Positions 6,210 through 21,377 of a DNA stretch of 64,000 bases are shown piece after piece. The DNA is taken from IMG/VR virus record IMGVR_UViG_3300043775_001647. One strand, written 5' to 3'. Each line of letters opens with the position of its first letter. Positions within the stretch are counted from its first letter, which is position 1. A program made the translations under genes and the position numbers. The stretch comes from an uncultured virus (IMG/VR IMGVR_UViG_3300043775_001647) (taxonomy: Duplodnaviria > Heunggongvirae > Uroviricota > Caudoviricetes). Under the pieces are notes generated by a model that worked only from the letters and a program-made list of their open reading frames with translations, did no database searches and was not told the origin of the DNA.

Positions 6210-6214
6210 GATTG

Positions 6215-6776: not shown

Positions 6777-6805
6777 ATTAATTTTTATACGTCAAAGAAC
6801 TACTT

Positions 6806-6882: not shown

Positions 6883-6890
6883 GGATCAGA

Positions 6891-7073
6891 TTAATTATCT
6901 GACTTTAATTTTTCAACCTCCATGTGGAGTGAATCAGCATGAGCTTCTGAACTCTCAATAAGAGAATCGGTAGCGATAGAATCAACAGAAGTTGAATCCG
7001 TAGAAGTGGTTGAGGTCTCGTTCGAGCAAGCTGCTAAAACGACCATCACGGCGATATAGATTAGTTTTTTCAT
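6891..7073 (-). CDS. Small Ser/Thr-rich lipoprotein inside the tRNA cluster
   Basis: Signal peptide II MKKLIYIAVMVVLAA-C. Confidence 0.8.
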   Translation of the reverse strand: MKKLIYIAVMVVLAACSNETSTTSTDSTSVDSIATDSLIESSEAHADSLHMEVEKLKSDN

Positions 7074-7077
7074 AAGT

Positions 7078-7166
7078 TGGTACTACTGGCCGGGGTCGAA
7101 CCGGCACTTGCTTTACGGCAAACGGGATTTTAAGTCCCGCGGGTCTACCTATTCCCCCACAGTAGC
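7078..7166 (-). tRNA. tRNA-Leu(TAA)
   Basis: Anticodon arm CGGGA-CTTAAAA-TCCCG; long variable arm; encoded CCA. Confidence 0.95.
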
Positions 7167-7861: not shown

Positions 7862-8252
7862 AACCTTTATTGTATGTAAATATACGAAGATATACTTATA
7901 TAACCAACTATGCACTAAAAATCTTCCGGAAAAAAAAATTGAGTCTATGGGTTTTCTGACCTAGGTTACAATTTGGAATTCATAGGGGTAGTTTGGTTAT
8001 CCAAGTGTTATCACCATATTCATACTATTCATTATAAGTTACATTGTCTTTTAAAAAGACTTTGGGAGATACCTACCTTGTACTTATTATGTTATTATAT
8101 AGATATATACATTATATACTAGGATTTTGTCGGAAAAATACGCGTAGGTCTGGCTACGAGCTAACCGTATACCTACTATAGTGATATTAACTACACTTGT
8201 ATTGAGTACGTACATCGTACCTACTACCTACCTACTACCGTCTGCCTAAGAC

Positions 8253-8277
8253 AGAAAGAGCCGACCGTAGCCGACTC
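8253..8277 (-). terminator. Terminator closing the early island
   Basis: GAGTCGGC-TACG-GTCGGCTC-TTTCT on the minus strand. Confidence 0.7.
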
Positions 8278-8300
8278 CCCCCTATATGAAAACTAAAGGT

Positions 8301-8589: not shown

Positions 8590-8658
8590 AACCTTTTCTT
8601 TTGATACCTAAAGATAAGAAGAAAGGCTGGTTAATCCAACCTTTCCTCAAACTTTTTT

Positions 8659-8922
8659 TTAAAGAGTTATTTGGTGTAAGGTGGGGTCGTTAATGAGTAT
8701 GTCGGATAAAGACTGACCGTTGTCGGTGCGTCCATTTTGATATATGATATTGTCTTCGAATAAGTTTAATACATAGGATGTTGGTATTAAGGTTTCGTCG
8801 TTATGGGTAATAGAAGGGGCGTTTTTAAATGTGTCTAAAAAGTCGTCTTGGCGACCGTAGAGGGAATAAAGTAATTGAGATTTTTTAAAGTAAGTAGTTT
8901 GGTTGTTTATTTTTTTCTCCAT
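8659..8922 (-). CDS. Early hypothetical protein (leaderless)
   Basis: ATG immediately after the promoter -7 box. Confidence 0.8.
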   Translation of the reverse strand: MEKKINNQTTYFKKSQLLYSLYGRQDDFLDTFKNAPSITHNDETLIPTSYVLNLFEDNIIYQNGRTDNGQSLSDILINDPTLHQITL

Positions 8923-8975
8923 ACCTAAAGATACGAATAAGGGAGGGAGTTTCCAACCCTCCCCTAATCTTTTTT
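8920..8975. repeat. Terminator-promoter intergenic module (further copies at 13508-13565 and 13908-13964)
   Basis: CCATACCTAAA(G/T)ATACGAA...AGGGAGGGA..CCAACCCTCCCC.AAT.TTTTTTAA occurs three times. Confidence 0.85.
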
Positions 8976-9258
8976 AATTCTTTTTCTTTACTGGCTTTGC
9001 TGTTAGACCTGCCTTCTTCAAAGCAAAATAAACATCTGAGTACTTCACTCCAAGCTCCTTAGCAATCTCTCTGGTGGTCAAAGACCCATCTGCCATCTCA
9101 ACGATGCGAGGATCAACCGGCTTCTTCTCTCTCTTCTGAGCTGTTAGCCCGGTTAAGAATTTGATCAAGTCTTCCTTCTTGGTTTGACTAGCCTTCTGGA
9201 GACCTTTGGTAGTAGCTTCTGCTACTAGTTCTTTGTAAGATAATGTTTGAATGTTCAT
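8974..9258 (-). CDS. Small basic DNA-binding protein (Rho-N-like plus HTH)
   Basis: LSYKELVAEA...KKEDLIKFL; LTTREIAKELGVKYSDVYFAL. Confidence 0.75.
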   Translation of the reverse strand: MNIQTLSYKELVAEATTKGLQKASQTKKEDLIKFLTGLTAQKREKKPVDPRIVEMADGSLTTREIAKELGVKYSDVYFALKKAGLTAKPVKKKN

Positions 9259-9337
9259 AACCTATTTTTTTGTTTCTTTTTTATTATACCTAAAGATAAG
9301 AAGAAGCCTCCGAAGAGGCAACTCTTTTTTTTATTAT

Positions 9338-9589
9338 TTAGCTAAGCCAAACCATCATTGTGCCTGCATCGTACCACTCAAAGTACCATCCGTTCTCTTC
9401 AACGAAGTCGTTCAATTTAGGCTGTACTCCGAAGGTATCCATCCATCTCTCAGAGTAGTAGTCGAACAGGCTTGGATGAGACTCTCCTGATATCCAAATA
9501 CCTTCTCCACCAATGCCGAACTCTTCTGTTGTTCCTACTACATGAACTCCTTTTTCTCGGAGTGCTAAAATCATTCTGTCTCTTGTCAT
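9338..9589 (-). CDS. Early hypothetical protein
   Basis: Start corrected to AGGTT-ATG at 9589, after the promoter. Confidence 0.8.
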   Translation of the reverse strand: MTRDRMILALREKGVHVVGTTEEFGIGGEGIWISGESHPSLFDYYSERWMDTFGVQPKLNDFVEENGWYFEWYDAGTMMVWLS

Positions 9590-9684
9590 AACCTTTTTTA
9601 TTTCTTTGATACCTAAAGATACGAAAACAAAAGCAGGGGACCTACTGGCCCCCAAACTTTTTATCAAAAGAAAATAAAGGTTTC

Positions 9685-10467
9685 TTATTTGTAGATGGTC
9701 TTTCTAAAATTACCCATCACGTACTCCATTTTGATTCCCTCATGCGTAACAATTCGGTCTTCTTTCTCCACTCTCTTACCGCTGCCATCCTCTTCATAGC
9801 TCCAATCATATTGAACGTATGTAACTTCTAAATCAACAGTTTTACCAGATTTAGTTGCTTTAACGATTTTTAATTTCTTTACTAGATAAGAAGTCCATTG
9901 GCGATTAAACTCAAAGCATAGATCTGAATTCCACTCCATTCCCTCTCCGTTCAATTTATCGATAATATCTTGCTTTCTAGCTTCTTGCATCTGATAATCC
10001 TTCTGCTTAATTTCTGATGAAAGAATTTCATATTCGGAAGCCAGAGCAGCTAATTCTACCTTCTTACTATAAGGAGTTGCAAACGCTTCTTTAATACTAT
10101 CCATATCATTAAGCATCCTTTCAGCAACCTTACCATTGAAAATTAATCTCCTGAATTCAAATTCATCCTCACATATAGTAGCGTAAGTATTAAAGTAATA
10201 CTTCCTATCCTTATCTTCATCTCTCCAATAGCTCCTCTCAGTAATGCTCCCAATCTCCTTATGCCCAATCTTAAAATACATCCCACTATACCCCATCTCA
10301 ACAGCAACATCTGCATAAGATACTAATTCATCTGCAAATAGTTTCTCAAAGATTGCCTTCTTTTCTTCCTTAGCTTCCTTCTCAAGAGCCGAACAAGTAA
10401 CTTCGATTACATCTCTTTTCTCAATAAGAGCTGCTTTAACGATTTCTAAACTTTCATTTTTTGTCAT
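9685..10467 (-). CDS. Early hypothetical protein
   Basis: 260 aa, own promoter. Confidence 0.85.
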   Translation of the reverse strand: MTKNESLEIVKAALIEKRDVIEVTCSALEKEAKEEKKAIFEKLFADELVSYADVAVEMGYSGMYFKIGHKEIGSITERSYWRDEDKDRKYYFNTYATICEDEFEFRRLIFNGKVAERMLNDMDSIKEAFATPYSKKVELAALASEYEILSSEIKQKDYQMQEARKQDIIDKLNGEGMEWNSDLCFEFNRQWTSYLVKKLKIVKATKSGKTVDLEVTYVQYDWSYEEDGSGKRVEKEDRIVTHEGIKMEYVMGNFRKTIYK

Positions 10468-10510
10468 AACCTTTTTTTTATTTCTTTTTTCTATACCTAA
10501 AGATATGAAA

Positions 10511-10750
10511 TTAATCTTCTGGAGGCAACCCTAATCCTAACTTTTTTGCTAAAATTATCGCTGCATCTTTCTGCTCCTCTGAAGGCTCTGGGAACTTATG
10601 CCCCAGGTTGTAGAGCTCTTCATATAGCTCCTGCAAGTGTCTCTCAGTCGGAGACCCCCAAAAGTCTTTGCATGTAACAAAAGCGTCACCATATAGCAAG
10701 GCAGCAATCTCAAACAGATCTTCTCTCTTCTCTAATAACTCTTCTATCAT
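10511..10750 (-). CDS. Early hypothetical protein (leaderless)
   Basis: Promoter at 10753 abuts the ATG. Confidence 0.75.
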   Translation of the reverse strand: MIEELLEKREDLFEIAALLYGDAFVTCKDFWGSPTERHLQELYEELYNLGHKFPEPSEEQKDAAIILAKKLGLGLPPED

Positions 10751-10752
10751 AT

Positions 10753-10971
10753 CTAAAGATAAGAAATATTTATCGGGATAGCAACCTTTGCCTGCAAATC
10801 CTCTACCGAGCCTTCTAAGCCGGGAGGGTCAAGCCTCTCCATGCACTCTTTAAAAGAGCCTGTGAAGAGGATGCTGCAGTATCTAGCCGGCATGGCTTTC
10901 ACACCGGCTATTGCAAACATTCTATTCCCGCAGTGGTTTATATAATCGTAGTAGTTAAATATGGAATCCAT
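10753..10971 (-). CDS. Hypothetical protein
   Basis: ATG 10971 overlaps the end of the upstream gene. Confidence 0.55.
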   Translation of the reverse strand: MDSIFNYYDYINHCGNRMFAIAGVKAMPARYCSILFTGSFKECMERLDPPGLEGSVEDLQAKVAIPINISYL

Positions 10972-11494
10972 ATTCCCTTCCTGCAACTAAATTAGTTAAC
11001 AAGTAATCATCCCCGGTCAAGAATAATTGACGAAGCATCTGCTCTTCCATCCCTACACTCCGAATGATATACTCCATAGTCTCCCCGTCAACATCCATAT
11101 GCTTAAGCATGCTAATAATCTCTTCAACCATTCCAGGGTGACTCTTCATCTGCATAGTATCAGCTTTCTCAAGAATAACCAAATCCTTTAGCTGAATTAC
11201 ATAACGGGCATAATCATAACCCTGAGTATCAACCAAGAAGATTTTCTCTTTATAAGTAACCAAGTAGAACTGCTGATCTCCATCCAAAAAGTAATCGAAG
11301 AATGAGTTCGGGAATTCGACTATCGGAAGACTAGAAACAATCTCTCGAACGCTTTCATGCAATTCATTGAAGTTAATCGATGACCGAACATCATTCGGAT
11401 GATTAGGTTTACGTTCATAATCGAGAGTAGGGCGAGTAAGCTTTCTGTACTGCTCGTCAGTAATTGTGTCTGAGAATAATTTTTTGTTTTCCAT
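10955..11494 (-). CDS. Early hypothetical protein
   Basis: 179 aa, own promoter. Confidence 0.85.
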   Translation of the reverse strand: MENKKLFSDTITDEQYRKLTRPTLDYERKPNHPNDVRSSINFNELHESVREIVSSLPIVEFPNSFFDYFLDGDQQFYLVTYKEKIFLVDTQGYDYARYVIQLKDLVILEKADTMQMKSHPGMVEEIISMLKHMDVDGETMEYIIRSVGMEEQMLRQLFLTGDDYLLTNLVAGREYGFHI

Positions 11495-11553
11495 AACCTT
11501 TATTTATCTATACCTAAATATATGAATTATTTTTTAAATAAACAACTTTTTTT

Positions 11554-11649
11554 TTAAACCGCTTTACCGCAATCCCGGCATTTGCGTAATATTAACCCTG
11601 ATACGTGTCTTACTGCAACGTAGGTGGTTTTATGTTGACATGCTTTCAT
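11554..11649 (-). CDS. 31-aa Zn-finger-like peptide (not in ORF track)
   Basis: MKACQHKTT...RKCRDCGKAV. Confidence 0.5.
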   Translation of the reverse strand: MKACQHKTTYVAVRHVSGLILRKCRDCGKAV

Positions 11650-11654
11650 AGCTC

Positions 11655-11906
11655 TTAGAATTTATCTTGATAAGCAAACTCTCCATGCTCGTTGAATGCA
11701 TCAACCATGCTTTCAATTCTTTGAACATCATCATCATCCAACTCCAGAATGATTGAGTAATTATCCTCATCAACAATATCAACATCAAGAACTTTCGTTC
11801 CTTCTGGGTTCATAAATTCTTTATACCAGACATGACGTGTATTATCCATCATGATGTAGTAAGTTCGAACAGTGATTTGTTCTTCGTGATTTTCTAATAT
11901 CTTCAT
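11655..11906 (-). CDS. Acidic early hypothetical protein
   Basis: Own promoter, GGTT-ATG start. Confidence 0.8.
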   Translation of the reverse strand: MKILENHEEQITVRTYYIMMDNTRHVWYKEFMNPEGTKVLDVDIVDEDNYSIILELDDDDVQRIESMVDAFNEHGEFAYQDKF

Positions 11907-11949
11907 AACCTTTATTTTAATATACCTAAATATAAGAAATATAATTCAA

Positions 11950-12240
11950 TTAACCAACTACTTCCAAAGTAATTTTAATTTTAGCTACTCGGCAAGCTTC
12001 AAACATCTCTGCTTGATTTCTGTAATGTTCCACACTCTTTAAACAAAACTCTAGATACTCTGGGTAAGATTCACCATATGCTTTTGCATTCTTTTCATGA
12101 AATTTAGCTTCTTCAATCCATTTCTTAAGATTGTTCTCTGCTGTTTCTTTCTTAGAGAACATATCCTTGTTGGTAAACATGTTCAAGATTTCTCCTTCTG
12201 GAGTAATAGCAGCATACTTAAATTTTGTATCTATTTTCAT
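11950..12240 (-). CDS. Hypothetical protein
   Basis: Start corrected to AGGTT-ATG at 12240. Confidence 0.75.
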   Translation of the reverse strand: MKIDTKFKYAAITPEGEILNMFTNKDMFSKKETAENNLKKWIEEAKFHEKNAKAYGESYPEYLEFCLKSVEHYRNQAEMFEACRVAKIKITLEVVG

Positions 12241-12245
12241 AACCT

Positions 12246-12422
12246 TTAATTTTCTTCTCCTTGAATGATTAATTGAACAAACCCGTCTTCTTCCTGGATG
12301 TGACACTCCTCGGAAACGAATTCTATTGTCTCTCCAAACCCATACTCAACCAGACCAACAAACTCAATTTCTGATTCTGGATTCTGTTTCTGTAATTCTA
12401 ATATCAAGTCCTTTATTTTCAT
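12246..12422 (-). CDS. Acidic 58-aa protein (leaderless, not in ORF track)
   Basis: MKIKDLILELQKQNPESEIEF...; promoter at 12425 abuts the ATG. Confidence 0.75.
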   Translation of the reverse strand: MKIKDLILELQKQNPESEIEFVGLVEYGFGETIEFVSEECHIQEEDGFVQLIIQGEEN

Positions 12423-12465
12423 ACCTAAAGATAAGAATTATTTTTTTATTAAACAACTTTATTTT

Positions 12466-12648
12466 TCAATACCAACTCTCATTAATAACCACGTGATTGT
12501 ATCTGATATTGTCATTCTTGTCTCTATTCCAGACTTTGACCTCACAGTAGATATTGTTCTTACCATTCTGGTAGCCGACTACCTCATACATGTCAGCCAC
12601 CTCCTTCAGATGCTTCCATCTAGACCTACTTATCCTGCTGTAGTTCAT
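12466..12648 (-). CDS. Hypothetical protein
   Basis: ATGA overlap with the upstream gene. Confidence 0.7.
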   Translation of the reverse strand: MNYSRISRSRWKHLKEVADMYEVVGYQNGKNNIYCEVKVWNRDKNDNIRYNHVVINESWY

Positions 12649-12863
12649 TTCGCAATCTCTAGCTCCATAGTAGACCCATCCATGAACCGGACCATAGTCC
12701 CCATAAGCTGAGCGTAAGTATAAATGTTACAATCGAAATCCTGATAAAGAGTTTCCCTCTTATAGGAGCTTGTCAATTCAAGTTTCAATTTATCTGAAGA
12801 AGCAATCTCAAGCTTCCTTCCTTCATCTGTAATGGGCCTGTAACCAACGACTAGCTTTATCAT
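12645..12863 (-). CDS. Early hypothetical protein
   Basis: Own promoter. Confidence 0.75.
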   Translation of the reverse strand: MIKLVVGYRPITDEGRKLEIASSDKLKLELTSSYKRETLYQDFDCNIYTYAQLMGTMVRFMDGSTMELEIAK

Positions 12864-12899
12864 AACCTTTTTTCTATACCTAAAGATACGAAAGCTGGT

Positions 12900-13175
12900 T
12901 CAAAGAACCAACTCTCCATCCTTAAAAACGTAAATATTTTTGTCTGCTTTAATCTCGTGAATAGTATTAGCATTAATCATCCTGAATGCTTCTTTCTGCA
13001 TATCAAAGACAACGACCAATCCTTTCTCAGAGGGATTGTAAGACATTCCAACTCCTTTGACTCCTTTAGTAACACCCCTACGAGCATTCATCAATCTGAT
13101 TGAACCATCCTTCTTTGTGAAGGAAACTGTGAAGATCTTATCTCCTAGCAATTCTATAACCTTATTAACTTCCAT
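12900..13175 (-). CDS. SH3/Sm-fold (WYL_2-like) protein, leaderless
   Basis: FTVSFTKKDGSIRLM...VFDMQKEAFRMI. Confidence 0.7.
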   Translation of the reverse strand: MEVNKVIELLGDKIFTVSFTKKDGSIRLMNARRGVTKGVKGVGMSYNPSEKGLVVVFDMQKEAFRMINANTIHEIKADKNIYVFKDGELVL

Positions 13176-13201
13176 ACCTAAAGATAAGAATTATATTTCA
13201 A

Positions 13202-13510
13202 TTAACCAACAAAAAGTCCCATTTTATGCATTTCATTTTTTGCCTGGAAAGCAATTCGGCTCGAATCTGCTCCGATGTGAAAATCCAAAACCTCATCCTC
13301 ACCAATGGGGCGATAATTTTTCCAATCGTAAACCGTGAATACATCTCCGTCGGGAGTTTCCAAATTGTAATCGATGTTGGTTTTATCCTCCCCGTCATTA
13401 CTCTCCCATTGCGGATCTCCGAATGCTGCTCTCAACCTACCCAAGGTCGTTTTAATCGTAATGCCGTGGAAGGAAGTCTCATCGGTGGATTTATTTGTCT
13501 TTTTAACCAT
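13202..13510 (-). CDS. Early hypothetical protein (leaderless)
   Basis: Start corrected to 13510; LRAAFGDP...GDVFTVYDWK. Confidence 0.8.
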   Translation of the reverse strand: MVKKTNKSTDETSFHGITIKTTLGRLRAAFGDPQWESNDGEDKTNIDYNLETPDGDVFTVYDWKNYRPIGEDEVLDFHIGADSSRIAFQAKNEMHKMGLFVG

Positions 13511-13562
13511 ACCTAAATATACGAAAAAAAAGGGAGGGAACCAACCCTCCCCTAATCTTTTT

Positions 13563-13910
13563 TTAAGCTTCAACATCGCCGAACCCGGCATTGTCTGTTA
13601 ACTCCATCGCTTCATCTAAAATACCGTGTATCTTATCAGGGTCAGCAAGACCCGAAACATAATCCCCAAAGGTGTCTTCCTTGATCTGACATTGATTAAG
13701 GTCCTTAGCTACAGAGAACATAATATACTCTGGATCTGGAACTACTTCCCCTGTCAGCATGTGTCTCATCAATAAAGATGGTGAAATTAGTTTAGTAGTA
13801 ATAGCGTTAGCCATAGCGTGGCATTCAACACCGTAAGTCTCTTTAACTAATTTGTGAATGCTTAGTACATGTTCGTTGTACTCCACAAGTGTTTTTTTAT
13901 TTTCTCCCAT
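13563..13910 (-). CDS. Early hypothetical protein (leaderless)
   Basis: Start corrected to 13910, abutting the promoter. Confidence 0.8.
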   Translation of the reverse strand: MGENKKTLVEYNEHVLSIHKLVKETYGVECHAMANAITTKLISPSLLMRHMLTGEVVPDPEYIMFSVAKDLNQCQIKEDTFGDYVSGLADPDKIHGILDEAMELTDNAGFGDVEA

Positions 13911-13961
13911 ACCTAAATATACGAAAAAAAAGGGAGGGAACCAACCCTCCCCCAATTTTTT

Positions 13962-14312
13962 TTAATCTTCGTTTCCTGCCTCCTCTAAAACATCCCAAAG
14001 AGCTTCCAATGAATCAACAGCTGAATCAATTAAGAAATCCTCATCAATCGCAATTCTATCAATCTCAATTTTATTATCATAACCAATACTTAACTCAAAT
14101 TGATCCTTATCAGCAACATCATCCCAATCTTTCTCTGAAAGCATTTGTCGGAAAGTAGTTAGGAGAACATCCTTATCAATTACTTGCTTTGGAGCTTCAT
14201 CCTGCATTTCTGCAGATAAATCTGCTAACAACTTAATTACATCATCTTTAGTAAAGATGGAAGGGTAGCTGTTGGAAACCCTGTCGATTGCGTTTTTAAT
14301 ATTGTTTATCAT
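13962..14312 (-). CDS. Acidic early hypothetical protein
   Basis: YPSIFTKDDVIKLL; own promoter. Confidence 0.8.
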   Translation of the reverse strand: MINNIKNAIDRVSNSYPSIFTKDDVIKLLADLSAEMQDEAPKQVIDKDVLLTTFRQMLSEKDWDDVADKDQFELSIGYDNKIEIDRIAIDEDFLIDSAVDSLEALWDVLEEAGNED

Positions 14313-14359
14313 AACCTTTTTTTATTTCTTTTCTATACCTAAAGATACGAATCTTCTCT

Positions 14360-14539
14360 TTAATAACCAACTTTTATTTTATTTTTTTCCTCAACATAAA
14401 TGTTAAGAATGTTAGAAGCTCCTTCGTAGTTACCGCTAGTCAACATCATTGTTGATAATGCTAAGATTCTAGCCAAGTCTCTCTCCTTTGGAGTCCTGCT
14501 TGTGTCGTCTGCAATAGCTTGTAGTTCTTTATTTCCCAT
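14360..14539 (-). CDS. Early hypothetical protein (leaderless)
   Basis: Start corrected to 14539. Confidence 0.7.
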   Translation of the reverse strand: MGNKELQAIADDTSRTPKERDLARILALSTMMLTSGNYEGASNILNIYVEEKNKIKVGY

Positions 14540-14593
14540 ACCTAAAGATACGAATAAGCCTCTAAACAAACAACTAATTTATTTATTCTTTTG

Positions 14594-14683
14594 TTGGAAA
14601 TTAAAATTGTTTTTCGTATCTTTAGGATGTCGGAAAGATGGAGTACGAAGGGCGGGGTAAAAACCTGAAGAAATCAGACGTAG
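14594..14683 (+). ncRNA. Plus-strand promoter plus ~55-nt hairpin RNA candidate, copy 1
   Basis: TTG(14594)-N20-TATCTTTAG(14617), then ATGTCGGA...TCAGACGT; near-identical to 16112-16200. Confidence 0.5.
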
Positions 14684-14709
14684 GCTGTTCTTTAAAAAAA
14701 AATGGTATG

Positions 14710-14738
14710 AAAAAAAACCGACCCCTTTCGGGGCCAGC
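14710..14738 (-). terminator. Intrinsic terminator
   Basis: GCTGGCCCC-GAAA-GGGGTCGGT-T8 on the minus strand. Confidence 0.8.
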
Positions 14739-14760
14739 TTCTCATATAACTTAAACCAAA

Positions 14761-14988
14761 CTATTGCTCTGTGAGTTCTTTTACCTTCTCATTGTGAAGC
14801 TCAATCATTGCAAAGTAGAGCTCGATGCTTTGGACTCTGGATTTAGAACTTAATCCCAATGTCTGCTTAGCTGCATCCCTAGCTGAGAATCTAGACATCT
14901 TCATGCCTGTTTTGATTTCAAATTCAAGACCTGTGATGATTGTCTTCAATCTGAAGAGTTCGATGTTGTTTTTTTCTGTGATTATCAT
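14761..14988 (-). CDS. Early hypothetical protein
   Basis: GLEFEIKTGMKMSR; own promoter. Confidence 0.8.
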   Translation of the reverse strand: MIITEKNNIELFRLKTIITGLEFEIKTGMKMSRFSARDAAKQTLGLSSKSRVQSIELYFAMIELHNEKVKELTEQ

Positions 14989-15058
14989 AACCTTTTTTTT
15001 ATTTCTTTTTTCCTATACCTAAATATACGAATAAGCCTCCAAGGGACCAACTAAAATA

Positions 15059-15085
15059 AAAAAAAAAATGGGCCCGAAGGCCCAC
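15059..15085 (-). terminator. Intrinsic terminator (UUCG loop)
   Basis: GTGGGCC-TTCG-GGCCCAT-T run. Confidence 0.85.
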
Positions 15086-15088
15086 TCT

Positions 15089-15877
15089 TTAAATGAACGA
15101 TTCTGCAAGCTCGTAAAGCTTCTCATTCAATTCAATATCTCTATTGAAGTTCTTGATAGACCTAGCCGTCTTATTTCGGCCGGTAGAGGCTTTGTATTTA
15201 AAACCACCACGAACCATCTTCTCTTGAATCACATTAAAGACTGTCCAAAGATCATTCCCTTCATCCTCAGAACGAACAGGCTTAAGAATTTCCTCAGCCG
15301 TAACCTCAGCTCCACCTTCTCCAAATCTAATACCCAAAGCAGCTAAAGCCATCTCAACCTTCTGATCCTCAGTCAAAGTAACCTCTCTAAATTTATTCAA
15401 GGTCTCAACAGTCACCGGTAAGGTTTCAACCAACCCCATAACCGTCTTCTTTAACTCCTCAAAAGAATAGCCCTTATGACGGATGGTCATAGAACCGAAA
15501 TCTTTGGTTGCAATAACCAACCCATTAGAACAAATCAATCTGAACAAACCGGCTCTGAACTGGAATGAAGAAAGACCATCGTGAGAGTTACTCAATAGGA
15601 TCTGAGGGTAAACAACCTCTCCATCCTCACTCTTAATAACTACATCGTCGTTTCTGAATACAACCATGTGCTTACTAAAGCTTCCACCCGCTTCATCTTT
15701 GCGAGTCTTTCTTTGCTTTGCATCAACAACATTCCATCCCATCGTAGCCATATCACCGATTAAATCGATAGTGGGTACGTGAACATACTTTGAAGATACT
15801 TTTGAAGAGACACCAGTCTCGAGAACTGCAGGGGCCATAATGGCGATCTGCTCTGTGGTTAAAAATGTGTTTTTCAT
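15089..15877 (-). CDS. DUF932/DUF945-family protein
   Basis: PQILLSNSHDGLSSFQFRAGLFRLICSNGLV; DLWTVFNVIQE; start corrected to 15877. Confidence 0.85.
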   Translation of the reverse strand: MKNTFLTTEQIAIMAPAVLETGVSSKVSSKYVHVPTIDLIGDMATMGWNVVDAKQRKTRKDEAGGSFSKHMVVFRNDDVVIKSEDGEVVYPQILLSNSHDGLSSFQFRAGLFRLICSNGLVIATKDFGSMTIRHKGYSFEELKKTVMGLVETLPVTVETLNKFREVTLTEDQKVEMALAALGIRFGEGGAEVTAEEILKPVRSEDEGNDLWTVFNVIQEKMVRGGFKYKASTGRNKTARSIKNFNRDIELNEKLYELAESFI

Positions 15878-16111
15878 AACTGTTTTTATCTTATTGATAC
15901 CTAAATATACGAATAAGCCTCCGAAGAAGCAACCTTTAGACAAAAAAAAATAACGACCATCCAAAGCATTTTTTGTGGCCACTATAGTGTTTCTGTAGGT
16001 TCTAGAAGCTTTTGATTGTTATTTTATTATGTGCCCTAAGCTCGTTTCCTTATGTAACGTCAATGTCTCTGTAGACTACATTAATAAATATGGTAAAAAT
16101 AAAAAAAAGTG

Positions 16112-16200
16112 TTTGTCCCCTGAACTAATGTTCGTATCTTTAGGATGTCGGAAGATAGTACGAAGGGCGGCTCCAAAGGGGTTGAAGAAATCAGACGTAG
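16112..16200 (+). ncRNA. Plus-strand promoter plus ~55-nt hairpin RNA candidate, copy 2
   Basis: TTTG(16112)-N19-TATCTTTAG(16135), then ATGTCGGA...TCAGACGT. Confidence 0.5.
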
Positions 16201-16245
16201 TTTGGGCCCTGGAATAAGTGGTACTTTCAGTGGTACCTTACCACT

Positions 16246-16441
16246 CCCCCTAGAACCACATCCCCAAGTCTTCCCCAGCGGTTTCTTTTCCCAGACCTCC
16301 CCCCCCCCCATGTCCCGCCTGCGGCGGGTCTCCCCTTACCCCCCACTGTTCCTGCAGGTCTCCCCCCATGCCCGGGGCGGTACCTCGAGTCGATCGACCG
16401 GCGAGTCTTGCGAAATCGACCGGAGCGGTACACATGCCGGT
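16246..16441. other. GC-rich patch with C-tracts and a palindrome cluster
   Basis: About ten C3-C11 runs; CCTGCAGG, CCCGGG, GGTACC, CTCGAG and GTCGATCGAC within ~50 bp. Confidence 0.8.
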
Positions 16442-16648
16442 AAACTCTCCTAAATACTCTCCACTCTTCCCTTGTCTATTTTCTACACACCATTACCATT
16501 CTTTTATATAGTACCATGTTATACCCACTACTAGTTAACACACATTACTTTTCATTACACACTTCCCATATCACCCTTACCCTTTATATTATGTTTTCTC
16601 ATTGTCTTATAGTCTTACCATACGTCTATACTTATCTATAGTATACTC

Positions 16649-16822
16649 TACGGTTTAATAAGCTACGGTCGTCTAACACTACGGTTGACTCCTTACGGTT
16701 TTCTTTACAGTTCCCTATACGGTTTACTCACTACGGTTGTCTAGTTCCTACGGTTACCTATCTTACGGTTACCTCTACCATACTATCCTACGGTTGACTC
16801 TTCTACGATTTTCTATACGGTT
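16649..16822 (+). repeat. Array of 12 TACGGTT heptamers (iteron- or pac-like)
   Basis: Perfect copies at 16649, 16680, 16694, 16718, 16732, 16749, 16764, 16789 and 16816; one-mismatch copies at 16664, 16706 and 16804. Confidence 0.9.
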
Positions 16823-16871
16823 TTCTTTATATTGGCTATACCCTGAATTACTCTACTCCTTCTTACTAGGT

Positions 16872-17408
16872 TCAATATTCATGTCTCATAGCTTTCTTTA
16901 ATACCTTTCTTGCTTTATACAATTGTGATCGGACAGTTACATGCCCTACATTTAATTCCTTTGCTATCTCTGGTCCAGATAGTCCTTCAATACAGAACAT
17001 TTCAATCACTCTTTTATATCCCGGTGCTAAATTATCTATACATTTCATAACCACCTGTAAGTCCATAGGTGAATGAGTATCATTACATCTTCCTGGATTT
17101 ACTACGGTTACATCTTTCTGATATTGCTCATACTTTCTCTTCTTTATATGATTAAGTGCTGTGGTTATTACCACTCTACCACACCATGCTACTAAGTAAT
17201 TATCATCCTTTAGTTGTCCAATATACCTAAAGATTCTTACAAAGCTATCACAGACTACATCATCTGTATCATCTACATTATTGACATACTTGTATGCTAG
17301 TTTTGAAAAGTATGCCTTATACCTAGTATAGAGAAGTGCTTTAGCACTCTCTGAACCTGCTTTAAGTTCTTGAGCTAGCTTAACCGTATCTACCTGTTCC
17401 TGTTCCAT
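16872..17408 (-). CDS. ECF-type RNA polymerase sigma-70 factor
   Basis: Region 2 (DTDDVVCDSFVRIF...AWCGRVVITTALNHIKK) and region 4 (LAPGYKRVIEM..IEGLSGPEIAKELNV..VTVRSQLYKARK). Confidence 0.9.
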   Translation of the reverse strand: MEQEQVDTVKLAQELKAGSESAKALLYTRYKAYFSKLAYKYVNNVDDTDDVVCDSFVRIFRYIGQLKDDNYLVAWCGRVVITTALNHIKKRKYEQYQKDVTVVNPGRCNDTHSPMDLQVVMKCIDNLAPGYKRVIEMFCIEGLSGPEIAKELNVGHVTVRSQLYKARKVLKKAMRHEY

Positions 17409-17445
17409 CTACTTAATATACGAATCATATTTCAACTAAACAACT

Positions 17446-17469
17446 AAAAGAATGGGGCCCGTAGGCCCC
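17446..17469 (-). terminator. Intrinsic terminator after the folE-queF block
   Basis: GGGGCC-TACG-GGCCCC-ATTCTTTT. Confidence 0.75.
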
Positions 17470-17532
17470 TTACTCTTACTCATATCTTCTCCCCGTGTGG
17501 GGAAGTTCTTGAGAATTCGCGCGATCTTCTTT

Positions 17533-17890: not shown

Positions 17891-18814
17891 TTATTGTCTA
17901 AGTGTTTTTTTGTTTCTGTAATTTACATCTGTGAACATTGTTGGGATCATATCTGTATGAGTTGCTCTGATAGGATTAATATCCAATCCTCCTCTACGGG
18001 TATACAAACAAGCTACCATCAAACGAGAAGGTTGATAAGCTTCTGTTAAATGCATAAACATCATCTCACAAATCTCTTCGTGGAAATGAGACACCTCTCT
18101 ATGAGATACGATGTACTTTGCTAACGATTTGAAATCAGGAGCATTTGTTCCGGTAGTCTCAATCTCGATATAAACATCACCCCAGTCTGGTTGGTTGGTT
18201 ACCCTACAGTTACTTCTCAAAAGGTTTGAAGTTATCTTAGTCGTAACTGCTACCTCATTAGGAGCTACTTCCATTGATTGCAACTGACTAGCATCTGAAT
18301 GGAATGTATCGAAAGTTTCTTCGTCTAAATTAACTGCCTGGTCAAGGTGTATGTAATCTGTTCCAAACTCTACCTCAGGAGTAAACTCGTTCGTAAAGAA
18401 CTTAACTTCAACTTCTGTCTGTAATAGTTTAGATAGATCTTTAGTGACCATCTGCTCAACTAAGTTAACACATTCGTGTGCTGTAGAACCCAAACGGGTC
18501 ATGTTAAAGGAGTTCAAGTAAAGCTTGATTGACTTAGACTCTACGTGAGCAGGACTATCTGCCGGACAGTAGATCTTCATCATTCCGTTTACCGGACGTC
18601 CATTCTCTGTGATTGCTGATACTTCATAAGCATTCCAAACATCACCGCCTACAAAGGGTAGGTCACCTTCTTTAATGCTGTAACTCTCTCGGTTGTAGTA
18701 GCGAGGTACTGCAACGAGAAGCTCAGGAGCATACGTTGACTTGTAACCCTCACCGCCTACCTTACCAAGGTGTTTGCCGGCAATTTCAATTACTGTATTT
18801 TGATTATTATCCAT
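17891..18814 (-). CDS. queF: NADPH-dependent preQ0 reductase QueF (bimodular)
   Basis: QueF motif VESKSIKLYLNS, catalytic SNCRVTNQPDWG, FHEEICE, YTRRGGLDINP. Confidence 0.93.
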   Translation of the reverse strand: MDNNQNTVIEIAGKHLGKVGGEGYKSTYAPELLVAVPRYYNRESYSIKEGDLPFVGGDVWNAYEVSAITENGRPVNGMMKIYCPADSPAHVESKSIKLYLNSFNMTRLGSTAHECVNLVEQMVTKDLSKLLQTEVEVKFFTNEFTPEVEFGTDYIHLDQAVNLDEETFDTFHSDASQLQSMEVAPNEVAVTTKITSNLLRSNCRVTNQPDWGDVYIEIETTGTNAPDFKSLAKYIVSHREVSHFHEEICEMMFMHLTEAYQPSRLMVACLYTRRGGLDINPIRATHTDMIPTMFTDVNYRNKKTLRQ

Positions 18815-19343
18815 GATTCTTTATTGTTGTATAAAATTTTTCTAATCTTTCTTCTACTGATCCTGTTAGGTATACTACAGGAACTTTTATATGCTTAATG
18901 TATCGTTCAAATAAGTCTACTATATCATCTCTGAATTGAGTATTAGTGCTCCTGGTTCCATCGTCTACGATATCGAATTCAGGCTTTAGATAGAAGATAT
19001 AATCATAGCGATCCTTGTAATGATTGAATACGTTCATAGAGTATTCCCATACCCACTTCTCAACACTACCTTGCTGGTATAACCAATGAGTATAAACTAC
19101 TCCGTCGATGACACATCTATCCATAATAGCATCAGTATACAGAGTATTCTTAATATGCTCATTCATAATTAGAAGCTGGGTAGTATTACCTCCTGCTTCG
19201 TTTATCTTCAAACCCTTCTTAACCATCCGGCGGGTAATCTCGTCGATGAATTCGTATTTGTACCTGAACTCCTCGTTCTGCTTAATTGCTTCTAGTAGAG
19301 TAGTCTTACCTGTTGATTGAGCTCCTGTAAATGATATTCTCAT
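18807..19343 (-). CDS. P-loop nucleotide kinase (NadR/AAA_28, dNMP-kinase-like)
   Basis: Walker A GAQSTGKTT, DRCVID motif. Confidence 0.8.
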   Translation of the reverse strand: MRISFTGAQSTGKTTLLEAIKQNEEFRYKYEFIDEITRRMVKKGLKINEAGGNTTQLLIMNEHIKNTLYTDAIMDRCVIDGVVYTHWLYQQGSVEKWVWEYSMNVFNHYKDRYDYIFYLKPEFDIVDDGTRSTNTQFRDDIVDLFERYIKHIKVPVVYLTGSVEERLEKFYTTIKNHG

Positions 19344-19370
19344 TAGTATTAATATACGAAGTTAATTTGA

Positions 19371-19916
19371 TTAAAGCCAATGTCTTTTAAGAAAGTTTAC
19401 CCACATATCGACTGAGATGTTATGCAGCTTCTGAAACATTTCATCCATTGTAAGGTTCCTGATGCTTATCTGCTGAGATCTAACTACCGGACCATCATCC
19501 ACTCCTGCTGTTACTTGATGAATTACACAGCCGGAACTACTCAAATCTAGATTCCAGGCTTTCATCTGAGGATCTTTTCCTTTCAGTTCAGGGTATTTAG
19601 TGATCAAACCAGGATGTCCATTGTAGATAGTTGAATACTCTTCAATCACTTCTGTAGGTATTACTCTTAACCATCCATGTAAGGTGATCACGTATGTATC
19701 AATACCGATTGCTTCTGCTAAGACGCTACGGTAGTCTTCTACGGTTGGTTGGTTCGGTAATGTTATAATATTTTTAGAGAGCACCTCTTGGTTTATTTTC
19801 CTTAACCGGGCCGGTCTTTCATTGGTAATAATAACATCAGGCCATCGATCTAAATGATTACTTACTTCAGCAATCTCGTTGCCAGTCTGAGAGAAGAATG
19901 CAATCCACTTACCCAT
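19371..19916 (-). CDS. dpdN: PurN-like formyltransferase; probable preQ1 formyltransferase
   Basis: FFSQTG, LHGWLRVIP, YNGHPGL..YPELKG, GCVIHQVTAGVDDG; embedded among 7-deazaguanine genes. Confidence 0.75.
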   Translation of the reverse strand: MGKWIAFFSQTGNEIAEVSNHLDRWPDVIITNERPARLRKINQEVLSKNIITLPNQPTVEDYRSVLAEAIGIDTYVITLHGWLRVIPTEVIEEYSTIYNGHPGLITKYPELKGKDPQMKAWNLDLSSSGCVIHQVTAGVDDGPVVRSQQISIRNLTMDEMFQKLHNISVDMWVNFLKRHWL

Positions 19917-20700
19917 TCCACCATGCTTTAAAGACGTCAATATTCCAATCTAAGTTATGCTTGCTGATTTGGTCTGCCGGGTAGTTAATTAATTCAAATA
20001 GCTTCTGAGACTCTTTTGTCTTAAGCCCGGAGTGAGGATAAGGAATTCCTTTAATAGCATGTACTACTGGGTTAGAAGTATCCATTGAGTAAATCCAATC
20101 ATATCCTTTGTAGAACTGACCTTCTTGAGGTAATGCACAACCGAGTAAGTGGTGAGGCTTTTGCTTATTAATAATACCGTCCTTCTCTAATCTGCCTAGC
20201 AAAGCAACTCTTCCTAGCATCCAGCTTACAAGCTTGTTCGGATTAGGAACTATTTTTTCATAGAGAGAATAATCAAAAGAGATTGCAATCATATCAACAT
20301 CCAGCTTGTCATCTAAAGTCTGATAGCATTCCACGATCTCCTCATAAGTCTTTCCTTGAACTACTGCAATACTTTTACCCTTAGCGGTTGGTCTATGAAA
20401 CTGATTCCATACGTAAGCATTAAAGATTGTTGTCTTTGCATCCTCTAAAGCATCTGGGATGATGTACCAGGTAGGCTCAAGCTTATTATTCCATTCGAAG
20501 AACTTCTTCATATCAAAAGCCTCTCCTAATTCAAAGATTGAATTATCTAAAATAACTTCTCGTTCTTTACAGGCTTCAACAAAGGCTTCTTTATAGGCTT
20601 CACTCTCCTCTAACAAATGAACTAAGCAGTAATCGTAATCAGTCTTAGTTTGAACGTAAGAGAATAAATCGATAGGAGATTCGTGCGCTATCTTAATCAT
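19909..20700 (-). CDS. dpdA: TGT-like TIM-barrel protein; probable DpdA-family 7-deazaguanine transglycosylase
   Basis: ILDNSIFELG, IIPD, AVVQG, HHLLG and SMDTSNP motifs; coupled to folE. Confidence 0.65.
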   Translation of the reverse strand: MIKIAHESPIDLFSYVQTKTDYDYCLVHLLEESEAYKEAFVEACKEREVILDNSIFELGEAFDMKKFFEWNNKLEPTWYIIPDALEDAKTTIFNAYVWNQFHRPTAKGKSIAVVQGKTYEEIVECYQTLDDKLDVDMIAISFDYSLYEKIVPNPNKLVSWMLGRVALLGRLEKDGIINKQKPHHLLGCALPQEGQFYKGYDWIYSMDTSNPVVHAIKGIPYPHSGLKTKESQKLFELINYPADQISKHNLDWNIDVFKAWWNG

Positions 20701-21377
20701 TACTTGCAGCTATATCCTTTAACGAATTCGTAAAACTCTGCTCTTGCTGAATCTTCCATCATGAAGCATCCTGATAACTTTGAAGTTTTCATAGAAGCTC
20801 CTGCATGCTTTACTCCTCTGCAAGATACGCAATTGTGGGTTGCTTCGACCATTACAGCTACTCCCTGATTACCTTCACAAATCTTATTCACTGCGTTATG
20901 GACTGCAACTGTATATTGTTCTTGGATTGTTCCTCTTCTTCCGAAGTATTCAACAATCCTATTTAGCTTTGATAAACCGACAACCTTACCTTCTGGAGAA
21001 GGAATGTAACCGATATGAACCCGGCCTTGGATTGTTTGGTGATGATGAGAACACATAGAGGTAATTGGAATATTGCCTTCAAATACCATTCCGTCGTATC
21101 CATCTGAAGGAAATGCAGTAACGTTATCCATCATATCGTAACGTCCTTTCCATAAATCGAATACGTATGCTTTTGCTACCCTGCGAGGAGTATCAGAAGA
21201 GTTAGGATCATTCTTCCAATCACAACCTAATGCATCTAGAAACTTTCCGTAAGCATCTGCTGCCTTATCAACCATCTTCCATTTCTCTTTTTCGGTGAAC
21301 GGATAACCGGGTGCCTTGCCGTTAGCAAAGCCCATGCTCGCTAATTCAAGACCGTCTGAAAATTCTTTTAAATCCAT
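20700..21377 (-). CDS. folE: GTP cyclohydrolase I
   Basis: DTPRRVAKA, SMCSHH, GLSKLNRIV, HNCVSCRGV. Confidence 0.95.
   Translation of the reverse strand: MDLKEFSDGLELASMGFANGKAPGYPFTEKEKWKMVDKAADAYGKFLDALGCDWKNDPNSSDTPRRVAKAYVFDLWKGRYDMMDNVTAFPSDGYDGMVFEGNIPITSMCSHHHQTIQGRVHIGYIPSPEGKVVGLSKLNRIVEYFGRRGTIQEQYTVAVHNAVNKICEGNQGVAVMVEATHNCVSCRGVKHAGASMKTSKLSGCFMMEDSARAEFYEFVKGYSCK

What the first reader, a model, noticed from the sequence alone, without database searches (positions are those of the whole stretch)
14594..16200. Twin plus-strand promoter plus small structured RNA, the only antisense transcription units seen in 64 kb
Seen: two copies (14594-14683 and 16112-16200) of a consensus early promoter pointing against all other genes, followed by ATGTCGGAA..GAT..AGTACGAAGGGCGG-[variable]-TGAAGAAATCAGACGTAG. 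The ends pair (AUGUCgGA/UCaGACGU). The variable part differs in sequence yet forms a hairpin in both (CGGGGU-AAAA-ACCUG vs CGGCUCC-AAA-GGGGUUG), which looks like covariation. A conserved purine-rich internal loop is left unpaired. The reading frames are not conserved (13 aa vs a different frame), arguing against a peptide. Inference: an undescribed early phage sRNA. Its loop (AAGAU..UACGAA) resembles the promoter template strand AAAGATACGAA, so it may be a 6S-like or protein-sponge decoy.
Basis: partly seen in the sequence, partly recalled or inferred. Interest (0 to 1): 0.75.

Follow-up and report, generated by a model that had tools for sequence, protein, structure and literature searches.

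The report
Twin antisense small-RNA genes in phage
A large Flavobacterium-type phage carries two backward-facing early promoters that each drive the same very conserved, purine-rich, non-coding RNA piece with a small hairpin; the RNA family is real and undescribed, but its job is still unknown.

Summary
The early promoter motif occurs perfectly on the + strand only twice in 64 kb (14613, 16131). Each copy is followed at once by the same ~57-nt purine-rich module. The module recurs in related phage contigs and metagenomes: 25 distinct sequences, in lineages I call A, A' and B. It is far better conserved than its flanks. It is non-coding: ORF lengths from the copy-2 start range from 35 to 123 aa with shifting frames, ATG becomes TTG in one lineage, and there are frameshifting indels.

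Only part of the proposed fold survives. The central hairpin is supported (a GC/CG swap; 13 of 13 variants fold on the + strand only). The terminal stem is not (0 compensations, 11 broken cells). Folding energies are no better than shuffles. Nothing matches Rfam, and I found no credible counterpart in 151 Flavobacteriales genomes. A 6S-like structure is not supported.

Best reading: twin early phage sRNA genes that act through conserved single-stranded purine boxes around a hairpin. Their partner is unknown. Copy 2 is the likely ortholog of the single copy in phage immuto and points at an iteron region about 500 nt away. The same scan has noted this family twice before on other DNA.

The parts
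14594..14626 (+). Promoter of copy 1. TTG at 14594-14596, 20-nt spacer, -7 box TATCTTTA at 14617-24, then GG.
   Evidence: Perfect match to the 14-nt early-promoter core. Same TTG-N19-20-box layout as the - strand early promoters. The box type TAnnTTTG at -12 to -5 is the flavobacterial sigma-A consensus (PMC9723704, passages).
14627..14683 (+). RNA module, copy 1 (type A1), 57 nt, 74% purine by my own letter count.
   Evidence: Alignment with copy 2. It has 55 of 57 letters unchanged in a relative whose surroundings are 82.8% identical. Model R1 scores it 88.9 bits. GC skew is +0.41 to +0.57, against negative values around it.
14653..14667 (+). Central hairpin of copy 1: a 4-bp stem (CGGG with CCUG) and a 7-nt A-rich loop.
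   Evidence: Folds at -3.3 kcal/mol on the + strand and -1.8 on the complement. Variation among relatives falls in the loop or keeps the pairs.
14684..14760 (+). Tail of copy 1: GGCTGTTCTTT, an A-run, then a G+C hairpin at 14718-14737. That hairpin is the terminator of the convergent - strand gene 14761-14988 and may also end the + RNA.
   Evidence: Sequence. In the A' lineage the same place carries a run of 10 T straight after GTTCTT. The 134-nt fold has z = -0.59. The 3' end is inferred, not shown.
14541..14554 (-). Divergent early promoter of the leaderless gene 14360-14539, back to back with the copy-1 promoter.
   Evidence: Perfect core match. ATG lies 1 nt after the core, opening a 59-aa ORF.
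16112..16144 (+). Promoter of copy 2. TTTG at 16112-16115, 19-nt spacer, box at 16135-16142.
   Evidence: Perfect core match; layout read from the sequence.
16145..16200 (+). RNA module, copy 2 (type A2), 56 nt.
   Evidence: All 56 columns are invariant in 9 of 9 copy-2 variants, although their surroundings are 81-100% identical to the window. R1 scores it 59.2 bits.
16168..16184 (+). Central hairpin of copy 2: 7 bp, 3 of them G-U, with an AAA loop.
   Evidence: Folds at -5.9 kcal/mol on the + strand; the complement has no structure, 0.0.
16201..16249 (+). Conserved extension of copy 2 only, with a GGTAC...GTACC hairpin at 16220-16237. Shares GGGCC..GGTACCTTA with type B.
   Evidence: Nearly invariant in 9 variants. 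The few changes fall in the GGTAC hairpin loop and at 16201 and 16212-16215. Shared motif with immuto-type loci.
16250..16440 (+). C-rich, G-poor tract with variable poly-C and GGTCTCCCC-type repeats. Not coding.
   Evidence: GC reaches 0.76 with skew -0.41 to -0.51. Many indels between relatives. The frame opened at the copy-2 ATG ends after 35 to 123 aa in 10 variants, and the same motifs turn up in different frames. A rut-like role is my inference.
16440..16640 (.). Pyrimidine-rich spacer (+ strand).
   Evidence: GC skew -0.71 to -0.77; moderately conserved.
16640..16830 (.). Array of about 12 TACGGTT iterons between copy 2 and the sigma-factor gene 16872-17408.
   Evidence: Repeat families D1-D5; conserved in relatives. 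Comparable arrays (ACGGGT in immuto, CTACGG in A') lie about 600 nt downstream of the RNA start in two other lineages.

Best explanation
The two stretches are paralogous genes for small non-coding RNAs of a lytic phage that infects Flavobacterium-type hosts.

The host sigma-A RNA polymerase would transcribe them from two consensus early promoters that face against every other gene. The working part is the first ~57 nt. It is a purine-rich and mostly unpaired stretch, made of boxes (U)GUCGGAAR, RUACGAAGGGCGG and GAAGARAUCAGACG, with one short hairpin in the middle whose sequence is free to change.

I think the RNAs act in trans early in infection. The single-stranded boxes and the hairpin would be presented to a partner, more likely a host or phage protein that is titrated or recruited than an mRNA.

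The 3' parts differ between lineages and only end the transcript. Copy 1 runs into a shared terminator. Copy 2 runs into a C-rich tract that looks like a Rho loading site. The immuto type has a hairpin array plus a terminator.

Shown: the promoters as motifs, the conservation, the lack of coding potential, and a hairpin specific to the + strand.
Inferred: that the RNAs are made, their ends, action in trans, and a protein partner.
For: - Promoters: only two + strand matches with fewer than 3 mismatches, both perfect, each with the TTG-N19-20 upstream element.
- Family: both copies occur in 3 of 3 contigs found by the module pattern. All 18 loci of a promoter+start pattern carry the module. 61 of 64 metagenome loci do too; 3 are chance. 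That gives 25 distinct module sequences.
- Selection: flanks are 82.8% identical where the modules have 55 of 57 and 56 of 56 letters unchanged. An A' relative shows 93.8% over the promoter plus module, against 71-84% elsewhere. 56 of 56 columns are invariant in 9 copy-2 variants.
- Not coding: the frame from the copy-2 ATG ends after 35, 102, 85, 86, 93, 35, 84, 44, 57 and 123 aa in 10 variants, with motifs changing frame. ATG becomes TTG in A' copy 2. Type B has indels of -2 nt and -1 nt. The 4 substitutions in the copy-2 extension of the 83% relative change 3 codons, all to a different amino acid.
- Hairpin: one pair swaps GC (9) for CG (5), and one pair changes GC to GU in 3. In type B, 98.9% of 87 cells pair, with 4 one-sided changes that keep pairing. 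13 of 13 distinct hairpins fold flush on the + strand and are weaker or absent on the complement. This fits an RNA of the + strand, not a DNA site.
- Discrete-gene look in relatives: the immuto 206-nt unit folds with z = -2.95, matched by 1 of 200 shuffles, and ends in a hairpin plus a U-run. A' copy 1 is followed by a run of 10 T.
- No extended match to the phage's own transcripts: seven 10-mers shared, against about 4 for shuffled modules.
Against: - No transcript is shown. Contigs from four RNA runs cover the neighbouring early genes but not the modules.
- Folding energy is ordinary: z from +0.50 to -0.70, and -0.59 for copy 1 with its tail.
- Covariation is thin: one compensatory pair, possibly a single event. 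In type B the pair counts are reached by 452 of 500 shuffles.
- The window's copies lack a clear + strand terminator. The scan found only - strand ones.
- The link between types A and B is weak by model score: 6.8, 4.0 and 6.0 bits, E about 1. At E up to 1, R1 found none of the 11 B loci searched.
- No partner is known. Three GAAG boxes are not beyond chance in so purine-rich a sequence (my estimate).
Confidence: 0.45

Rival explanations
1. Origin-linked transcript. The copy-2 and type-B promoter fires into the nearby iteron region and activates or primes replication there. This is how promoter-plus-unwinding-element origins and plasmid primer RNAs work (recalled knowledge of T4 oriF/oriG, the T7 primary origin and ColE1 RNA II). 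Copy 1 would be a spare or a regulator.
For: In three lineages the RNA start lies about 500-600 nt from the first iteron and points at it. This holds although the DNA in between is unrelated: a C-rich spacer in the window, a - strand gene in A', and a hairpin array plus small genes in immuto. The module is purine-rich, which favours stable RNA-DNA hybrids (general knowledge). In A' a convergent - strand promoter about 50 nt behind the module would make an antisense RNA, a layout like a primer RNA with its antisense inhibitor.
Against: That the iterons are an origin is itself unproven. Terminator-like hairpins and head-on genes lie between the RNA and the iterons in B and A'. Downstream of copy 2 the RNA would be C-rich, which disfavours R-loops. 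Copy 1 has no iterons downstream. Synteny alone could explain the linkage.
Confidence: 0.15
2. Cis-acting RNA that modifies the polymerase transcribing it, in the manner of put or nut sites: linear boxes plus a small hairpin just behind two early promoters.
For: The module starts at +1. It combines invariant linear boxes with a hairpin whose stem covaries and whose loops are purine-rich. There are two copies behind two promoters in the A and A' lineages.
Against: Nothing lies downstream to express. 77 of 79 ORFs of 100 aa or more are on the other strand, and one of the two + strand frames, 16145-16453, is shown here not to be conserved. Type B has one copy and is followed by a terminator-like hairpin. 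No two-stem fold as in put RNA is seen. No antiterminator protein has been identified.
Confidence: 0.12
3. Cis-antisense or interference element. The + strand transcripts collide with, or pair to, read-through transcripts of the early units and of the sigma-factor gene 16872-17408, and so tune the early-to-middle switch.
For: Everything else is on the - strand, so any + RNA is antisense to read-through RNA. Copy 1 sits between a terminator and the next early promoter. Copy 2 points at the sigma-factor gene. A' copy 2 faces a convergent promoter.
Against: The module overlaps no coding sequence. The strong conservation of its exact sequence and the + strand-specific hairpin are not needed for mere interference. 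The C-rich tract would probably stop transcription before the sigma gene (inference).
Confidence: 0.1
4. DNA-level element. The promoter core and the downstream AAAGA..TACGAA form an imperfect palindrome bound by a regulator of early promoters. The RNA would be a by-product.
For: In type A the module holds the reverse complement of the promoter core, split by an insert.
Against: The insert length varies from about 3 to 12 nt. The match fades in type B. Conservation extends 57-104 nt, far beyond such a site. The hairpin relies on G-U pairs that exist only in + strand RNA.
Confidence: 0.08
5. 6S-like or promoter-strand mimic that traps host RNA polymerase.
For: Likeness of AAAGAU..UACGAA to the complement of the promoter core in type A.
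Against: No long rod-with-bubble fold, and energies at shuffle level. No 6S model hit at E up to 5, nor in relatives at E up to 1. The mimic is interrupted and not conserved in type B.
Confidence: 0.05
6. Leaderless micro-ORFs (13-16 aa peptides).
For: 8 - strand promoters of this class start an ORF at an ATG 1 nt after the core, and the + copies also begin with ATG. All type A copy-1 variants end at the same TGA after 13 codons.
Against: ATG becomes TTG in A' copy 2. One B variant stops after 4 codons and another is frameshifted. Copy 2 reads on into a non-conserved frame. Sequence after the copy-1 stop codon is as conserved as before it.
Confidence: 0.03

Closest known systems
Phage-encoded trans-acting small RNAs and decoy RNAs, including RNA anti-CRISPRs (Racrs; PMC10651486, abstract and outline read)
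   Same: A short non-coding RNA with its own promoter in a phage genome, presumably made early, with a small hairpin flanked by conserved single-stranded sequence.
   Different: Racrs are defined by mimicry of host CRISPR repeats. Here no Rfam CRISPR-DR model matched. Model R1 found no array-like or strong hit in 151 Flavobacteriales genomes: the best was 30.9 bits, with 5 weak single hits. No target or partner is known. The host is not identified.
HK022 putL/putR and lambda nutL/nutR (cis-acting antitermination RNAs; recalled, no paper read here)
   Same: Two look-alike copies just behind two early promoters. Conserved linear boxes plus a small hairpin that varies between relatives.
   Different: No downstream genes to read into. 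There is one copy only in the immuto lineage. There is no two-stem put fold. No N-like factor has been identified.
6S RNA
   Different: Size, fold and model searches all disagree.
Origin primer or activator transcripts (T4 oriF/oriG, T7 primary origin, ColE1 RNA II with RNA I; recalled)
   Same: A strong promoter aimed at an iteron-bearing non-coding region about 0.5 kb away. The RNA start is purine-rich. One lineage has a convergent antisense promoter.
   Different: The origin is not demonstrated. Terminators and genes intervene in relatives. The downstream RNA is C-rich.

Membership tests
6S RNA | RNA of about 180-200 nt forming a long irregular helix with a central open-promoter-like bubble | tested here: not met
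   The conserved unit is 56-57 nt (104 nt in copy 2). The folds show no such rod, with z from +0.50 to -0.70.
6S RNA | Match to an Rfam 6S-type covariance model | tested here: not met
   No such hit at gathering score in the window, at E up to 5 in 14000-17500, or at E up to 1 in three relatives' loci.
6S RNA | Binds the RNA polymerase holoenzyme | not testable with these tools
   Needs a pull-down.
RNA anti-CRISPR (Racr) | Mimics the repeat of a host CRISPR array (definition from the abstract of PMC10651486) | tested here: inconclusive
   No CRISPR-DR family of Rfam matched. R1 gave no multi-copy or strong hits in 151 sampled Flavobacteriales genomes. The true host and its arrays are unknown, and only the type A model was used.
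put / nut type cis-antiterminator RNA | Lies in the early transcript upstream of terminators and of genes that need read-through | tested here: not met
   No conserved + strand gene downstream: 77 of 79 ORFs of 100 aa or more are on the - strand, and the frame at 16145 is not conserved.
put / nut type cis-antiterminator RNA | Conserved stem-loop(s) with covariation next to linear boxes | tested here: met
   One hairpin with a GC/CG swap and one-sided changes; flanking boxes invariant. A second stem as in put RNA was not found.
put / nut type cis-antiterminator RNA | Makes the polymerase resistant to terminators | not testable with these tools
   Needs a reporter or an in vitro transcription assay.
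Trans-acting phage sRNA gene (generic) | Own promoter, no coding potential, discrete 3' end, conservation above the flanks | tested here: inconclusive
   Promoter motif, lack of coding and conservation are met. The 3' end is clear only in relatives, not in the window. The transcript itself was not seen.
Origin primer/activator transcript | Promoter directed into a demonstrated origin, with the RNA forming a hybrid there | not testable with these tools
   Only the geometry is seen: the iteron array lies about 500-600 nt downstream in three lineages.
Leaderless micropeptide gene | Start codon and reading frame kept among relatives | tested here: not met
   ATG to TTG, a stop after 4 codons, frameshifts, and variable ORF ends.

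The most novel reading that the evidence does not exclude
The module may be a new kind of promoter-proximal phage RNA device that couples host-polymerase early transcription to the phage's iteron region. It would load onto, or mark, the polymerase or a replication or regulatory factor as soon as it emerges. The twin copies would give dosage or two entry points, and the C-rich tract would act as a built-in Rho stop. This would be neither a classic base-pairing sRNA nor a put or nut site.
Probability: 0.15. Interest if true: 0.75.

Novelty: new variant of a known kind. Interest (0 to 1): 0.5.

Why it matters
Small RNAs of phages that infect Bacteroidota are almost unexplored. These hosts lack Shine-Dalgarno-led translation and use unusual promoters, so the rules learned from E. 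coli phages may not carry over.

Here is a sharply conserved RNA module with a simple anatomy, found across freshwater metagenomes and, in a diverged one-copy form, in Baltic Sea phages. That diverged form (immuto) has a culturable host, so the family can be tested directly. Finding its partner would show how these phages take over the host, or start replication, in the first minutes of infection.

I found nothing in print on it. Searches for immuto with Flavobacterium phage (8 papers listed) and for phage-encoded small RNA, Flavobacterium and antisense (listing only) showed no description. These were title and abstract listings only, not full reads.

Tried and rejected
- RNA evidence: 19 runs were listed and 4 freshwater metatranscriptome runs were laid. 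Contigs cover 13907-14519, 14814-14999 and 15141-16065 but not the modules. All are contigs, so there is no strand or end information. This is no evidence either way.
- The whole genome is not held.
- Rfam: only 6 tRNAs at gathering score. There were 10 sub-threshold chance-level hits at E up to 5, and nothing in relatives.
- Host counterpart: R1 found 0 hits in 5 genomes. It found 5 weak hits in 151 genomes. On inspection none has the promoter or the whole module.
- Targets in the phage:
  - The first duplex scan timed out.
  - The reduced scan gave only self-antisense hits, plus one at 8170-8126 of -31 to -33 kcal/mol.
  - That hit turned out to be a degenerate module-like stretch rather than a target.
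  - The k-mer check gave seven 10-mers against about 4 expected, plus one 13-mer at 63781 in the non-conserved tail. I take that as chance.
- A to B homology by model: 6.8, 4.0 and 6.0 bits, not significant.
- Alternative folds:
  - A long stem pairing GAAGGGCGG with CTGTTCTTT in copy 1 is the MFE with the tail, but it has only one-sided changes and one break.
  - An outer stem in type B is broken in 5 cells.
- The 102-aa ORF 16145-16453 is rejected as a gene.
- The sigma-70-type promoter scan is not informative for this host type.
Full report
WHAT THE WINDOW IS

The window is part of a 115-kb viral contig, matched at 100% identity by loci L003 and L004. The phage is a distant relative of the 160-kb Flavobacterium myovirus immuto, with 60.6% amino-acid identity in the DNA polymerase. 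77 of 79 ORFs of 100 aa or more are on the - strand.

Between about 8.6 and 16.0 kb lies a cluster of small genes. Each is preceded by the motif TTCGTATCTTTAGG or a near variant. There are 36 matches with up to 3 mismatches against 8.45 expected, and 0 of 100 shuffles reach 36. Upstream of each box is a TTG element 19-20 nt away.

This is the layout of the flavobacterial sigma-A promoter. PMC9723704 places the TAnnTTTG box at -12 to -5 (I read passages only). So the host polymerase should read these promoters, and the genes are early by inference. In the 8.6-16 kb cluster, 6 of these promoters start an ORF at an ATG one base after the motif (leaderless layout). Two more promoters outside the cluster do the same. 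The others have an A-rich leader.

THE OBSERVATION

Only two + strand matches have fewer than 3 mismatches, and both are perfect: 14613-14626 and 16131-16144. Each is followed directly by the same module. Its parts in order are ATGTCGGAA, a short variable linker, AGTACGAAGGGCGG, a variable 15-17 nt segment, and TGAAGAAATCAGACGTAG.

One detail is wrong. Copy 1 differs from copy 2 by 3 extra bases in the linker. The two therefore share a frame through ..STKGG and part ways only after the variable segment.

RELATIVES

- A pattern made of the two conserved boxes found both copies, about 1.5 kb apart, in 3 of 3 viral contigs. These are the window's own contig, a 94-95% relative and an 83% relative.
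- A pattern of promoter plus the first bases found 18 loci in 15 viral contigs, and all 18 carry the module.
- A looser pattern found 64 metagenome loci, of which 3 are chance matches.

Together these give 25 distinct module sequences. I sort them into:
- type A1 (like copy 1);
- type A2 (like copy 2);
- an A' lineage (records G003 and G004) that also has two copies, 780-850 nt apart;
- type B (immuto and its kin), with one copy per record.

The A to B link rests on four things. They share the same perfect promoter, the same orientation against all genes, and shared motifs (ATGTYRGAAG, RTAMGRRGG, GAAGAR, AGACG, then GGGCC..GGTACCTTA). By my own letter count they are about 59% identical. By covariance model the link is not significant. 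The B model scores the window's copies 6.8 and 4.0 bits, and the A model scores immuto 6.0 bits. Each hit falls at exactly the right place, but E is about 1. I treat A and B as probable orthologs, not proven ones.

SELECTION

- In the 83% relative, copy 1 has 2 changes in 57 and copy 2 has none in 56.
- In nine copy-2 variants all 56 module columns are invariant, and the next 48 nearly so. Just beyond, the sequence breaks up into indels.
- An A' contig matches the window at 93.8% over promoter plus module, against 71-84% in other matched parts.

NOT CODING

- From the copy-2 ATG the frame ends after 35, 102, 85, 86, 93, 35, 84, 44, 57 and 123 aa in ten variants. An eleventh is cut by its contig end. 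The same peptide-like motifs appear in different frames. The tract is simply too C-rich to hold stop codons.
- In A' copy 2 the ATG is TTG.
- One type B variant stops after 4 codons, and another is frameshifted by one base.
- The type A copy-1 variants do all stop after 13 codons. However, the 16 bases after that stop are as conserved as those before it.

STRUCTURE

Folding energies are ordinary, with z from +0.50 to -0.70 for six constructs and -0.59 for copy 1 with its tail.

Among 14 type A sequences, 4 of its 7 pairs never vary. The other 3 vary only by breaking: 11 unpaired cells and no compensation. By the -12 to -5 rule, its first one or two bases may lie upstream of the start.

The central hairpin fares better:
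- one pair swaps GC (9 sequences) for CG (5);
- another changes GC to GU in 3;
- in type B, 98.9% of 87 cells pair, with four one-sided changes that keep pairing and one break. Variation is so low that 452 of 500 shuffles do as well;
- all 13 distinct hairpin segments fold flush with the conserved flanks on the + strand. All 13 are weaker on the complementary strand, and 6 have no structure there, because the stems use G-U pairs.

This points to a + strand RNA rather than a DNA site or a - strand RNA. The sequences are related, so this amounts to perhaps four or five independent hairpin versions.

WHAT FOLLOWS THE MODULE

- Copy 1 is followed by GGCTGTTCTTT, an A-run, and the terminator hairpin of the convergent gene (14718-14737).
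- In A' the same spot has ten T.
- Copy 2 has a conserved 48-nt extension. After it comes a C-rich, G-poor tract (GC up to 0.76, skew about -0.5), then a pyrimidine-rich spacer (skew -0.77), and then about 12 TACGGTT iterons. The iterons abut a phage ECF-type sigma-factor gene. I read the C-rich tract as a possible Rho loading site. That is inference only.
- Type B is followed by tandem 17-nt AU-rich hairpins and a hairpin with a U-run about 190 nt from the start. The 206-nt unit folds with z = -2.95.
- In all three lineages an iteron array lies 500-600 nt downstream in the direction of the RNA, although the DNA in between is unrelated.
- In A' a convergent early promoter sits about 50 nt behind copy 2.

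KNOWN FAMILIES AND HOSTS

Rfam gave nothing for the window or for relatives. The type A model found no credible counterpart in 5 plus 151 Flavobacteriales genomes. There were five weak single hits, the best 30.9 bits, and none had the promoter or the whole module.

That search was a sample, run with strict filters and with the type A model only. So the module was not found in those searched. I cannot say it is absent.

EXPRESSION

Four freshwater metatranscriptome runs hold contigs over the neighbouring early genes but not over the modules. These are contigs without strand information, and small RNAs are easily lost. I draw nothing from the gap.

READING

The evidence fits twin genes for an early non-coding RNA whose function lies in its sequence. 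That sequence is a set of conserved purine boxes held around a small, freely evolving hairpin. I put about 0.75 on 'functional + strand RNA' and 0.45 on the fuller statement that it is a discrete trans-acting RNA binding a still unknown partner.

Rivals are:
- an origin-linked transcript (0.15);
- a put or nut-like cis device (0.12);
- antisense or interference (0.10);
- a DNA palindrome (0.08);
- a 6S-like polymerase trap (0.05);
- a peptide (0.03).

The likeness to the promoter complement is real in type A. But it is split by inserts of about 3 to 12 nt and is lost in most type B sequences.

EARLIER NOTES OF THIS SCAN

Two earlier notes, on other genomes, describe the same family. One favoured a protein decoy, with RNA anti-CRISPRs as the closest known system. 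The other favoured put or nut-like elements and an origin link. I used them as leads and tested them only in part. They are not independent support.

Noticed in passing
window 16640-16830 (and 16250-16440): An array of about 12 TACGGTT iterons, a pyrimidine-rich spacer, and GGTCTCCCC-type repeats with a poly-C of variable length. Together they form a 670-bp non-coding region between the early cluster and a sigma-factor gene. It may be an origin or a terminus. Immuto has ACGGGT iterons in two arrays around a similar spacer.
   Followed up: partly
window 8110-8300: A second non-coding region at the far end of the early cluster. On the + strand it holds a degenerate module-like start (TAGGATTTTGTCGGAAAAATACG) without a proper promoter box. 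It also holds iteron-like CTACGGTC repeats in inverted orientation and a 35-nt core conserved in the A' lineage.
   Followed up: partly
window 16872-17408: A phage-encoded ECF-type sigma factor (Sigma70_r2 and r4_2, E = 5.9e-12). Its own promoter at 17411-17424 is a TATATTAAGT variant of the early box. The same variant recurs at 55489, 59286, 59780 and 63508, so it may be a second promoter class.
   Followed up: no
window 17891-21377: A gene set typical of 7-deazaguanine DNA modification: a QueF-like protein, GTP cyclohydrolase I, a kinase-like AAA_28 protein and a formyltransferase-like protein.
   Followed up: no
window 8600-16000: Six of the early promoters in this cluster start an ORF at an ATG one base after the motif (leaderless layout). 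The rest have an A-rich leader ending AAAGGTTATG. Leaderless mRNAs are only 5.5% in F. psychrophilum (PMC9723704, passage read).
   Followed up: partly
L082 (metagenome contig B570J29032_109956961, last 240 bases): This contig is 100% identical to the window up to 16206. It then jumps to a 94% copy of 14559-14728, placing a copy-1 unit 132 nt after copy 2. It is probably a chimeric assembly of two strains, or possibly a real rearrangement between the twins.
   Followed up: partly
L007 6560-6660 (immuto) and kin: Two to five tandem 17-nt palindromic units (TTAAAGC-AAA-GCTTTAA, period 18 bp), with the number varying between strains, lie between the type B module and its terminator-like hairpin. 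They could be RNA hairpins or protein-binding DNA sites.
   Followed up: no
window 14718-14737 (- strand): The terminator hairpin next to copy 1 (CUGGCCCC-GAAA-GGGGUCGG on the - strand) resembles the type B central hairpin. It was the best hit of model R2 (11.3 bits, E = 0.04). I cannot tell whether this is coincidence or shared origin.
   Followed up: no
window 6137-7166: A cluster of six tRNA genes (Glu, Gln, Ser, Met, Arg, Leu) on the - strand.
   Followed up: no
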